Source of the DNA: Escherichia coli
Lineage (GTDB): Bacteria > Pseudomonadota > Gammaproteobacteria > Enterobacterales > Enterobacteriaceae
Assembly: GCF_024298765.1 (NCBI RefSeq)
Contig: NZ_CP101210.1
DNA: 64,000 nucleotides
Direction: 5' to 3' (one strand)
Below are positions 19,759-20,562 of this stretch, in pieces. Position 1 is the first letter of the stretch. Each line of letters starts with the position of its first letter. A program made the position numbers and the translations under genes. The notes beneath the pieces were generated by a model. The model did not search any database, was not told where the DNA came from, and saw only the letters and a program-made list of their open reading frames with translations.

Positions 19759-20562
19759 TGGAGCACCTCAAAAACACCATCATACACTAAATCAGTAAGT
19801 TGGCAGCATCACCAGCCTTCTTGAGGCTACCACCTGTTTTCAGGTGTCATTCAGACGTGATTTGCCCCAGATTGGGAAAGCACGCTTTTTTCTCAGCTAT
19901 CGTCCTCTTATTTTGCCGTTACATTTCTTTTTGCACTCTAATGATTAATTTACAATAATAATATCGGTAATTATTGAGTAATAATAAATTGATTATTGCA
20001 AATGTAATTTAATTCCATCTTCGCGTTATATTCCAATCTTTAATCTCCGCATGGAACAAGTTGCATGCGTGACTATATTAAGACAACTTATAACCACCAA
20101 AACATTTGCTTTGCAAGCAAAAACAGTGACCATTGACTCTAAGAAAATTCCGATCTATTGTTAGGGTCATCAAAGTTACTTAACAGTATTCCGAAATGAA
20201 AATACAAAGCAAGCTAATTGTCTTATTAAACATTATTATTGCATTTATATTATTTGAGCTTTTAGCTCAAAAATTTGGTTTGAGTACATTATTTTAAAGC
20301 AAGATAAACAATATCGGGCACTCTAGTTTTTATAATTAACAATTAAACGTCCATGAAATGTTATTTACTTTTCTTCGCTATTGTCATATCTTAATATAGT
20401 GGCTTACGCCACTCTACTTTCATCACATTTTGTACGTTTATGTACTCGCCATGAAGCTCTTTCATGGCGATTTTTTATTCTTAATCCAAGAACATACTCC
20501 CTACCTATAGCAAAATCACTTTTTTAACAAAAGAATAACGTATTTAGGTAATCATTACGAAT

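What the first reader, a model, noticed from the sequence alone, without database searches (positions are those of the whole stretch)
20196..20478. Small hydrophobic ORFs and a strong terminator inside an otherwise ORF-free AT-rich 750-bp tract
The tract 19814-20562 has no ORF of 60 aa or more but contains a 33-codon ORF (20196-20297, MKIQSKLIVLLNIIIAFILFELLAQKFGLSTLF) and a 13-codon ORF (20344-20385), followed by a perfect 9-bp-stem hairpin with T6 (20447-20477). The layout is reminiscent of type I toxin or small membrane peptide loci. The Shine-Dalgarno sequence is weak, so this is speculative.
Basis: inference. Interest (0 to 1): 0.35.

Follow-up and report, generated by a model that had tools for sequence, protein, structure and literature searches.

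The report
Unannotated prophage YncL-like small membrane protein
The 33-codon ORF is a real, conserved and unannotated gene for a tiny membrane protein related to the E. coli stress protein YncL; lambda-like prophages carry it as a self-contained add-on gene next to their tail-fibre genes, and nothing here supports a toxin-antitoxin pair.

Summary
The observation largely holds. The 33-codon ORF (20196-20297, +), the AT-rich ORF-poor tract (GC 28-30%) and the hairpin plus T6 terminator (20446-20476, +) are all there. The 13-codon ORF is really at 20353-20394, and its ATG is absent from every other lineage, so it is chance.

The tract (about 19995-20582) is a conserved module just after the tfa stop codon. 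It occurs in at least four prophage contexts, in 827 of 5426 complete E. coli genomes and in viable phages (mEp332, ev099, PhiR70_1). It is never annotated.

The 33-aa ORF is intact in 35 of 36 full copies and shows purifying selection (pN/pS 0.05-0.17; other frames 0.37-2.4).

It is a diverged homologue of YncL, the 31-aa K-12 membrane protein:
- NCBIfam E 1.3e-5, below the curated cutoff
- hhalign probability 96.4%
- alignment score 60 against 20 +/- 4 for shuffles

Published work reports that YncL overproduction causes sublethal membrane depolarisation.

One promoter-like site (TTGACT-17-TATTGT) and the terminator are the only signals kept in all lineages, which fits a classic moron. I found no conserved antisense promoter, no antitoxin-type complementarity and no Rfam match, so the type I toxin-antitoxin reading is not supported.

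One thing is unexplained: the last 80 nt of the 3' UTR is the most conserved part (95% identical in a copy that is 79% identical overall). It may be a regulatory RNA.

The parts
19995..20582 (.). Conserved AT-rich module that travels with the 3' end of tfa. It is found in prophages at attB-lambda, ydfJ (Qin site), icd (next to sitABCD) and argW/intS.
   Evidence: Alignment limits and contexts. GC 0.28-0.30.
20133..20161 (+). Sigma-70 promoter-like site, TTGACT-17 nt-TATTGT. The predicted transcription start is near 20168.
   Evidence: the only promoter-like site found at the same position in all three diverged lineages. The -10 is TATCGT in the 79% copy. The spacer sequence varies but its length is kept. 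The site is predicted; no transcript data were available.
20196..20297 (+). 33-codon gene for a YncL-family small membrane protein, MKIQSKLIVLLNIIIAFILFELLAQKFGLSTLF. It has no Shine-Dalgarno sequence.
   Evidence: Intact in 35 of 36 full copies. pN/pS is 0.17 and 0.05 in this frame. P = 4.7e-5 (binomial) and 9e-4 (simulation). YncL homology.
20298..20397 (+). Variable part of the 3' UTR, 55-70% identical to the 79% copy, with indels. It contains the chance 13-codon ORF at 20353-20394.
20398..20413 (+). Conserved hairpin AGUGGC-UUAC-GCCACU at the start of the conserved 3' block.
   Evidence: 100% of cells paired, with one C-G to U-G change.
20414..20445 (+). Nearly invariant, predicted single-stranded AU-rich linker CUCUACUUUCAUCAYAUUUUGUACGUUUAUGUAC. 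It is a candidate seed or protein-binding region of unknown function.
   Evidence: 1-2 changes in 32 nt across all lineages. It is the most conserved stretch of the module.
20446..20476 (+). Intrinsic terminator: 11-pair stem, 3-nt loop, then T6. The T run is T5 or TTTCTT in other lineages.
20563..21144 (-). Tail fibre assembly gene tfa, convergent with the small gene. Its last ~20 nt belong to the conserved module.

Best explanation
The tract is a phage 'moron': a self-contained, AT-rich add-on gene in the non-essential region between the last late gene (tfa) and the attachment-site end of lambda-like prophages.

A sigma-70-type promoter (20133-20161) is predicted to drive a monocistronic transcript of about 310 nt, running antisense to the tail operon and ending at the intrinsic terminator (20446-20476). 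The transcript encodes a 33-aa single-pass inner-membrane peptide that is a diverged paralogue of the chromosomal stress protein YncL.

Shown here:
- The ORF is conserved under purifying selection.
- It is homologous to YncL.
- The promoter-like site and terminator are conserved, and the unit is linked to tfa in several prophage types.

Inferred:
- The gene is expressed from the prophage.
- Like YncL, the peptide inserts in the inner membrane and, as it accumulates, partly dissipates the membrane potential. This would lower the lysogen's metabolic activity or alter its envelope physiology, as a lysogenic-conversion function.
- Output is kept low by the missing Shine-Dalgarno sequence and probably by silencing of the AT-rich DNA.

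The very conserved last 80 nt of the 3' UTR (hairpin, 32-nt single-stranded linker, terminator) probably adds an RNA-level function such as mRNA stability, or a 3'-UTR-derived small RNA. That function is not resolved.
For: Gene reality:
- The ORF is intact with identical length in all 22 full copies from genomes and IMG/VR, in 13 of 13 metagenome copies, and in both T5-tract copies L036/L038. This includes the 79%-identical lineage, where the stop codon survives an adjacent 5-nt deletion.
- Nei-Gojobori pN/pS is 0.17 (window vs L028), 0.05 (vs L007) and 0.14 (L007 vs L028). The other two frames give 0.37-2.4.
- Counts are 12 synonymous against 7 non-synonymous changes, P = 4.7e-5. Only 0.09% of simulations with 17 random substitutions keep the ORF open with 5 or fewer amino-acid changes.
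- No other ORF of 15 codons or more, on either strand, has an independent coding signature. The only other low ratio (- strand 20180-20233, 0.16) lies antisense to this ORF and is attributed to it.

YncL homology:
- NCBIfam NF000537 gives E 1.3e-5 over positions 1-28 of 30.
- BLASTP gives 11/28 identical, E 2e-7.
- Smith-Waterman score is 60 against 20.2 +/- 4.1 for 20,000 composition-matched shuffles (maximum 54), and 20-35 against other small hydrophobic peptides.
- hhalign against 11 YncL-family sequences gives probability 96.4%, E 1.4e-9, collinear from Met1.
- A profile search of 1.84 billion proteins returns only this peptide and YncL-like sequences, including bridging forms such as ...LLAEKFGWF.

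Moron architecture:
- The only promoter-like and terminator-like sites conserved in three lineages are on the + strand and flank the ORF.
- GC is 0.28-0.30 against about 0.50 in the flanks.
- The same module follows tfa in four integration contexts and in viable phages.
- It is present in 827 of 5426 complete genomes.

Function by analogy: YncL production causes sublethal depolarisation, nucleoid condensation and reduced protein synthesis (PMC12542507).
Against: - There are no transcript or translation data.
- There is no Shine-Dalgarno sequence, whereas K-12 yncL has AAGGTGG.
- The NCBIfam score (25 bits) is below the curated cutoff (35), so it is not an equivalog and its function may differ.
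- The near-invariant Trp29 of YncL is Leu here, and there is a 3-residue C-terminal extension.
- A few copies carry a frameshift in the A5T3 run (ATCC 43896, L037; P0005).
- The 3' block is more conserved than the ORF (95% against 82% identity to the 79% copy). A pure protein-gene model does not explain this.
- Only 3-4 sequence lineages exist, so statistical power is limited.
Confidence: 0.6

Rival explanations
1. Type I toxin-antitoxin locus: the 33-aa peptide is a membrane toxin whose translation is held in check by an antisense or nearby small RNA.
For: - The peptide is small, hydrophobic and lacks a Shine-Dalgarno sequence.
- Its homologue YncL depolarises the membrane and reduces viability when produced early (PMC12542507).
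- The window alone has a - strand promoter-like site, ATGACA-18-TAACAT, at 20387-20358 that would give an antisense RNA.
Against: - That antisense site is not detected in the two diverged lineages, and no - strand terminator is conserved.
- No complementarity of 13 nt or more to the transcript exists anywhere in the window.
- Inverted repeats inside the tract are short and are not kept in the 79% copy.
- There is no Rfam match to Sok, Sib, IstR, OhsC, Rdl, Orz or any other family.
- The predicted 5' UTR is short.
- Start-region to 3'-block pairing is -8.4 kcal/mol, and 24% of shuffles do as well.
- The papers read here describe YncL as a stress-response small membrane protein, not as a toxin-antitoxin toxin.
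Confidence: 0.08
2. The main product is RNA. The conserved 80-nt 3' end (20398-20477) is released, by processing or from an internal promoter, as an Hfq-type small RNA whose 32-nt linker is the seed. The locus would then be dual-function, or the ORF secondary.
For: - The 3' block is the most conserved part of the module, with 95% identity where the rest is 55-85%.
- Its layout is that of a typical enterobacterial sRNA: 5' hairpin, AU-rich single strand, GC-rich terminator and U run.
- Both helices are kept, with only pair-compatible changes.
- Conservation is not due to the - strand ORF in the block, which has 0 synonymous and 4 non-synonymous changes.
- Lambdoid prophages are known to carry Hfq-dependent sRNAs in intergenic slots of the structural region, for example PasB between gpI and gpJ.
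Against: - There is no Rfam hit.
- It is not PasB, because the probe sequence is absent, and not svsR, which lies in cI.
- The U tail is interrupted in the other lineages (UUUCUU) or shortened to T5, which is poor for Hfq binding.
- There are no double-sided compensatory changes.
- No significant pairing was found with its own start region or with the K-12 yncL mRNA.
- The block never occurs without the ORF: 826 against 827 genomes.
- The ORF's coding signature shows that the protein matters too.
Confidence: 0.2
3. The peptide is a superinfection-exclusion or anti-phage factor. Either it binds an inner-membrane component that incoming phages need for DNA entry, or its effect on membrane potential blocks or aborts infection.
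For: - It is a small single-pass membrane protein expressed as a moron, tightly linked to the receptor-recognition genes stf-tfa in four prophage types.
- From my own knowledge, not tested here: exclusion genes such as cor (phi80, N15), llp (T5) and the HK97 gp15 moron sit next to or within tail genes.
Against: - There is no match in PADLOC or PHROGs.
- The position argument is circumstantial. The same slot also carries unrelated cargo: an AraC-family regulator, sitABCD and an MFS efflux gene.
- The homologue YncL is a chromosomal stress protein with no known phage role.
Confidence: 0.12
4. Nothing functional: a chance ORF in AT-rich junk, conserved only because the copies are recent.
For: - Most copies are 95% identical or more.
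- Random substitution keeps the ORF open 57% of the time.
- Automatic annotation never calls it.
Against: - The substitution pattern is strongly biased towards synonymous changes in this frame only.
- There is specific homology to YncL well above composition-matched shuffles.
- A promoter-like site and a terminator flanking the ORF are conserved in a lineage 21% diverged.
Confidence: 0.04

Closest known systems
YncL (b4598) of E. coli K-12: a 31-aa stress-response small membrane protein (NCBIfam NF000537; Pfam PF28073 as listed)
   Same: - Same size class (33 against 31 aa), collinear from Met1.
- Shared positions: S5, basic residue 6, V/I9, L10, N12, A16, L19, F20, L22, basic residue 26, F27, G28.
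- Single hydrophobic helix flanked by basic residues.
   Different: - Only about 39% identical, and below the curated equivalog cutoff (25 against 35 bits).
- Trp29 is replaced by Leu, and there is a C-terminal STLF extension.
- No DNA-level similarity between the two loci.
- No Shine-Dalgarno sequence here.
- Prophage-borne, next to tfa, instead of chromosomal between patD and ortT.
- Long conserved 3' UTR.
Phage morons, i.e. lysogenic-conversion add-on genes of lambdoid phages (for example lambda bor and lom, HK97 gp15)
   Same: - An autonomous unit with its own predicted promoter and intrinsic terminator.
- Base composition unlike the flanking phage genes.
- Sits in the non-essential region after the tail genes.
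- Present in some related phages and absent from others.
   Different: The product belongs to the YncL family. In the papers searched here, that family has not been described on phages. The unit is transcribed convergently with the late operon, and its 3' UTR is unusually conserved.
Type I toxin-antitoxin systems of E. coli (hok/sok, ibs/sib, tisB/istR-1, shoB/ohsC, zorO/orzO, dinQ/agrB)
   Same: A small hydrophobic membrane peptide with weak translation signals, on a mobile element. A homologue perturbs membrane potential.
   Different: No antitoxin RNA could be identified, and there is no sequence or Rfam relationship to any of these families. Alignment scores to representative toxins are at background, 20-35 against 60 for YncL.
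Prophage-encoded Hfq-dependent sRNAs of pathogenic E. coli (PasA-D, AgvB, AsxR, Esr41, DicF, svsR)
   Same: The 3' block is about 80 nt, intergenic in a lambdoid prophage, ends in an intrinsic terminator, and has a conserved single-stranded stretch just upstream of it, as proposed for the PasB seed.
   Different: The sequence is different. The slot is different: PasB lies between gpI and gpJ. There is no expression or Hfq-binding evidence, and the block lies in the 3' UTR of a protein-coding gene.

Membership tests
YncL small membrane protein family | Score at or above the curated cutoff of NCBIfam equivalog model NF000537 (35 bits) | tested here: not met
   25.0 and 23.5 bits, E 1.3e-5 and 3.7e-5, aligned over 1-28 of 30 model positions. 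It is not an equivalog of YncL.
YncL small membrane protein family | Detectable homology to the family beyond compositional similarity | tested here: met
   - hhalign probability 96.4%, E 1.4e-9, over positions 1-29.
- BLASTP E 2e-7.
- Score 60 against shuffles 20.2 +/- 4.1, with 0 of 20,000 reaching it.
YncL small membrane protein family | About 30 aa, one hydrophobic helix, with the conserved positions N12, A16, L19, F27 and W29 | tested here: inconclusive
   33 aa. N12, A16, L19 and F27 are present. The nearly invariant W29 is L here, and V8 is I.
YncL small membrane protein family | Pfam YncL model (PF28073) | not testable with these tools
   The local Pfam copy gives no hit even for K-12 YncL itself, so the model is not in the library.
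YncL small membrane protein family | Inner-membrane location; depolarisation and nucleoid condensation on production | not testable with these tools
   Known for YncL from PMC12542507. It needs an experiment for this peptide.
Type I toxin-antitoxin system | Small hydrophobic toxic peptide | tested here: inconclusive
   The sequence features are met. Toxicity cannot be tested here.
Type I toxin-antitoxin system | Antisense, or nearby trans-encoded, RNA antitoxin complementary to the toxin mRNA | tested here: not met
   - No conserved - strand promoter-like or terminator-like site.
- No complement of 13 nt or more in the 64-kb window.
- Internal inverted repeats are not conserved.
- No Rfam antitoxin family.
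The promoter scan is a simple consensus method, so a weak promoter could be missed.
Type I toxin-antitoxin system | Translation-blocking mRNA fold (long structured 5' UTR, or 5'-3' pairing) | tested here: not met
   The predicted 5' UTR is about 28 nt. The start-region/linker duplex is -8.4 kcal/mol, and 24% of shuffled linkers do as well. The pairing appears in the MFE and alifold structures but not in the centroid.
Phage moron | Own promoter and factor-independent terminator flanking the gene | tested here: met
   Both are predicted and conserved in three lineages. Neither has been verified by transcript mapping.
Phage moron | Composition unlike neighbouring phage genes; present or absent among related phages; located in a non-essential region | tested here: met
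   - GC 0.28-0.30 against about 0.50.
- Present in 827 of 5426 genomes.
- Absent from the peptide-pattern scan of GTDB species representatives except for one 1.5-kb MAG contig.
- Lies between tfa and int/att in ev099.
Phage moron | Expressed from the repressed prophage | not testable with these tools
   No transcriptome data are available.
Hfq-dependent small RNA (3'-UTR-derived) | Intrinsic terminator with a long U tail, preceded by a conserved single-stranded region | tested here: inconclusive
   The terminator and the invariant 32-nt linker are present. The U run is U6 in the window but U5 or UUUCUU elsewhere.
Hfq-dependent small RNA (3'-UTR-derived) | A stable short transcript that binds Hfq | not testable with these tools
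   It needs a Northern blot, RIL-seq or CLIP in a strain carrying the module.

The most novel reading that the evidence does not exclude
The locus is dual-function. The mRNA encodes a YncL-like membrane-potential modulator, and its ultra-conserved 80-nt 3' end is released as a trans-acting small RNA. Together they reprogramme the lysogen, for example as a prophage-controlled dormancy or phage-exclusion switch tied to the tail-fibre module.
Probability: 0.12. Interest if true: 0.65.

Novelty: new member of a known kind. Interest (0 to 1): 0.4.

Why it matters
- A protein-coding gene present in about 15% of complete E. coli genomes and in viable temperate phages is missing from all the annotations inspected. 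This is a concrete case of how small ORFs are lost.
- It shows that the YncL family has a phage-borne branch. YncL is a stress-induced small membrane protein recently reported to lower membrane potential and metabolic activity. A phage-borne copy suggests that temperate phages can hand their hosts an extra copy of a 'metabolic brake'.
- That would be relevant to stress tolerance, antimicrobial-peptide sensitivity and possibly phage exclusion in commensal, APEC, ETEC and ExPEC strains. In some of these the gene sits beside sitABCD.
- The nearly invariant 3' UTR is a well-defined candidate for a new prophage regulatory RNA.

Tried and rejected
1. Known prophage sRNAs.
- Rfam at E up to 1 over 17000-23000 found only IS009, inside tfa.
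- The PasB probe sequence is absent from the window, and PasB lies between gpI and gpJ.
- svsR lies in cI.
- A full-text search for the peptide and terminator sequences found no paper.

2. 5'-3' pairing that hides the start codon. It is suggested by the MFE and alifold structures, but the duplex energy is no better than shuffles. Rejected as unsupported.

3. The 3' linker targeting chromosomal yncL mRNA. 60% of shuffles do as well. Rejected.

4. Antitoxin-type complementarity. Only three 12-mers occur in the window, which is chance level. The 25-nt inverted repeat 20059-20083 / 20389-20413 is not kept in the 79% copy.

5. Coding explanations for the 3' block. The - strand ORF at 20391-20465 has 0 synonymous and 4 non-synonymous changes.

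6. The 13-codon ORF. Its start codon is not conserved.

7. More distant relatives.
- A GTDB species-representative scan with peptide patterns gave one hit, a 1.5-kb contig in a Collinsella MAG that is probably misbinned.
- IMG/VR and metagenome pattern scans recovered only the same 3-4 lineages.
- So no compensatory-change test of the RNA structure was possible.

8. Searches that could not be run or were uninformative.
- Pfam is uninformative because the YncL model is missing locally.
- PHROGs and PADLOC gave nothing.

9. DNA similarity between this module and the K-12 yncL locus: none.

Full report
**Where the window comes from**

The window is E. coli DNA carrying a lambda-like prophage at the lambda attachment site. 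Identical sequence in complete genomes lies next to bioA and ybhB. The gene order, all on the - strand, is gpJ, lom, the tail fibre gene stf (21144-24551) and tfa (20563-21144). After tfa come the AT-rich tract, an IS1 (19046-19813), an AraC-family regulator gene (18096-18848) and IS3 remnants. The tract therefore lies in the non-essential arm between the last late gene and the attachment-site end. In phage ev099 the same arrangement is followed by int and xis.

**Checking the observation**

- The 33-codon ORF is at 20196-20297 with the quoted translation, and no ORF of 60 aa or more lies in 19814-20562.
- GC is 0.28-0.30 in the tract against about 0.50 in the tail genes.
- The hairpin and T6 run are at 20446-20476 on the + strand. 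The last 83 nt fold far better than shuffles, z = -6.1.
- No Shine-Dalgarno sequence precedes the ATG.
- The 13-codon ORF is at 20353-20394, nine bases from the stated position. Its ATG is ATA in every other lineage, so it is a chance ORF.

**The tract is a conserved, mobile module**

The stretch from about 19995 to 20582 recurs directly after the tfa stop codon in several settings:

| Context | Identity to window |
|---|---|
| attB-lambda prophages; phages mEp332, PhiR70_1, ev099 | 98.8-100% |
| Prophage in ydfJ (Qin site) | ~96% |
| Prophage at icd, next to sitABCD | 91-94% |
| Prophages at argW/intS, or next to sitCD and an MFS efflux gene | 79% |

- The core (20120-20500) is in 827 of 5426 complete E. 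coli genomes, always chromosomal.
- No feature is annotated under the match in any row listed, nor in any gene table inspected.
- A peptide-pattern scan of one genome per GTDB species found only one 1.5-kb MAG contig.
- IMG/VR and metagenome scans found only the same lineages.
- As far as these collections show, the module is confined to E. coli prophages and exists in only 3-4 sequence lineages.

**The 33-codon ORF is a real gene**

- It is intact and 33 codons long in 35 of 36 full copies examined.
- This includes the 79% lineage, where the stop codon survives a 5-nt deletion immediately after it.
- The one exception, ATCC 43896, has a 1-nt deletion in an A5T3 run.
- Substitutions are strongly skewed to synonymous sites in this frame only.

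| Comparison | Frame of the ORF | Other two frames |
|---|---|---|
| Window vs the 79% copy | pN/pS 0.17 | 0.37, 1.98 |
| Window vs the icd/sit copy | pN/pS 0.05 | 0.44, undefined |

- Between the two most independent lineages there are 12 synonymous and 7 non-synonymous changes, where about 20% synonymous is expected (P = 4.7e-5).
- In simulations, 17 random substitutions leave the ORF open 57% of the time. They leave it open with 5 or fewer amino-acid changes only 0.09% of the time.
- No other ORF of 15 codons or more on either strand has an independent coding signature. The only other low ratio belongs to a 17-codon - strand ORF (20180-20233) lying antisense to this gene.

**What the protein is**

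NCBIfam matches the YncL model (NF000537, 'stress response membrane protein YncL') at E 1.3e-5 over positions 1-28 of 30. The score is 25 bits against a curated cutoff of 35.

I retrieved K-12 yncL (b4598), which translates to MNVSSRTVVLINFFAAVGLFTLISMRFGWFI.

- BLASTP gives 11/28 identities, ungapped from Met1, E 2e-7.
- The alignment score of 60 compares with 20.2 +/- 4.1 for 20,000 composition-matched shuffles (maximum 54). Against other small hydrophobic E. coli peptides, whose sequences I supplied from memory, it scores 20-35.
- A profile search of 1.84 billion representative proteins returned 22 hits, all either this peptide or YncL-like. Some are bridging forms such as MNISGRGVILMNVFAALLLAYLLAEKFGWF. 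That profile included YncL itself, so this result is partly circular.
- An independent profile-profile comparison of the prophage peptides with 11 YncL-family sequences gave 96.4% probability, E 1.4e-9.

The peptide is therefore a diverged paralogue of YncL, not an equivalog. Trp29 is Leu, there is a three-residue C-terminal extension, and the two loci share no DNA similarity. A canonical family member inspected sits in an ordinary chromosomal context.

From the literature:
- YncL is induced by heat shock and minimal medium. Its production causes sublethal membrane depolarisation, nucleoid condensation and sensitivity to pore-forming peptides (PMC12542507).
- It is an in vivo substrate of the protease RseP (PMC10470546).

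**Transcription unit**

- The only promoter-like site found at the same place in all three diverged lineages is TTGACT-17-TAT(T/C)GT at 20133-20161 on the + strand. The only conserved terminator is the + strand hairpin.
- Between lineages the spacer sequence changes while its length and the hexamers are kept.
- This predicts a monocistronic RNA of about 310 nt with a 5' UTR of about 28 nt, convergent with tfa.
- An own promoter, an own terminator, foreign base composition and patchy distribution are the classic signature of a moron.

**Why not a type I toxin-antitoxin system**

- The antisense promoter-like site in the window (20387-20358) is not detected in the other lineages, and no - strand terminator is conserved.
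- Nothing in the 64-kb window is complementary to the transcript over 13 nt or more.
- Internal inverted repeats are short and not conserved.
- Rfam finds no antitoxin family.
- The pairing of the start codon with the 3' region seen in the MFE and consensus folds is energetically no better than shuffled controls.
- The peptide may well be harmful when overproduced, as YncL is. The defining second component of a type I system was looked for and not found.

**The unexplained part**

The most conserved stretch of the module is not the ORF. It is the last 80 nt of the 3' UTR, 20398-20477. It consists of a 6-bp hairpin, a 32-nt AU-rich segment predicted to be single-stranded with only 1-2 changes in all lineages, and the terminator.

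- Identity to the 79% copy is 95% here, 82% in the ORF and 55-70% in the intervening 3' UTR.
- Both helices are kept. The only changes are pair-compatible (C-G to U-G, G-U to A-U), and there are no double-sided compensations. There is too little variation for a covariation test.
- Conservation is not explained by the - strand ORF there.
- The block never occurs apart from the ORF.
- It resembles an Hfq-type 3'-UTR-derived sRNA. However, it matches no Rfam family, is not PasB or svsR, and has an interrupted U tail in other lineages.
- It shows no significant pairing to its own start region or to yncL mRNA.
- I leave it as a candidate RNA element. A local recombination patch is an alternative explanation that I cannot exclude.

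**Verdict**

It is an unannotated, prophage-borne member of the YncL small-membrane-protein family, packaged as a moron after tfa.

- Best-supported mechanism: an inner-membrane peptide that modulates membrane potential and physiology of the lysogen. This rests on analogy with YncL and is untested.
- Type I toxin-antitoxin: unlikely.
- Exclusion function: possible.
- RNA function of the 3' UTR: open.
- Novelty: a new member of a known kind.
- Interest: moderate.

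Noticed in passing
window 20603-20801 (- strand): Full-length Rfam hit to IS009 (RF02111), 229 bits, lying entirely inside the tfa coding sequence. It probably reflects tfa sequence conservation rather than an independent RNA gene.
   Followed up: partly
window 19046-19813: IS1 with no 9-bp target duplication. Its left flank (…CAGCCAATAAG) differs from the sequence that precedes AGCCTTCTT in phage mEp332, which suggests an IS1-associated deletion or rearrangement between the AraC-family gene and the tract.
   Followed up: partly
window 19814-19898: An 85-bp segment with two short hairpins and a T run. It recurs at 93-100% identity in several hundred other E. coli genomes in unrelated phage contexts, some next to capsid genes, without the rest of the tract. 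Its nature is unknown.
   Followed up: no
window 18096-18848 (- strand): A 250-aa AraC-family regulator gene in low-GC DNA (0.33-0.36). It is another cargo gene of this prophage arm and is also present in phages mEp332 and ev099. Its target is unknown.
   Followed up: no
L006 4892-4991 and 5596-5754; L028 3745-3844 and 4449-4607; L054: In the 79% lineage the module is bracketed by two tfa 3'-end fragments in the same orientation. The left one resembles the window's tfa end (89% over 37 nt). This suggests the module moves between prophages by recombination within tfa.
   Followed up: partly
L037 (E. coli ATCC 43896); protein P0005: Frameshift variants of the small ORF at the A5T3 run give 28-aa and 43-aa products. 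They could be real decay or homopolymer sequencing errors.
   Followed up: partly
L007, L028, L029 (prophage at icd): In ExPEC/APEC-type prophages the YncL-like gene lies just downstream of, and in the same orientation as, the sitABCD iron/manganese transporter genes. In one case an MFS efflux gene lies between them. Read-through co-transcription is possible.
   Followed up: no
literature (PMC8175672): Chromosomal yncL mRNA is listed as a RIL-seq target of KilS, an sRNA from the kilR region of the Rac prophage. This is an independent link between prophages and YncL.
   Followed up: no
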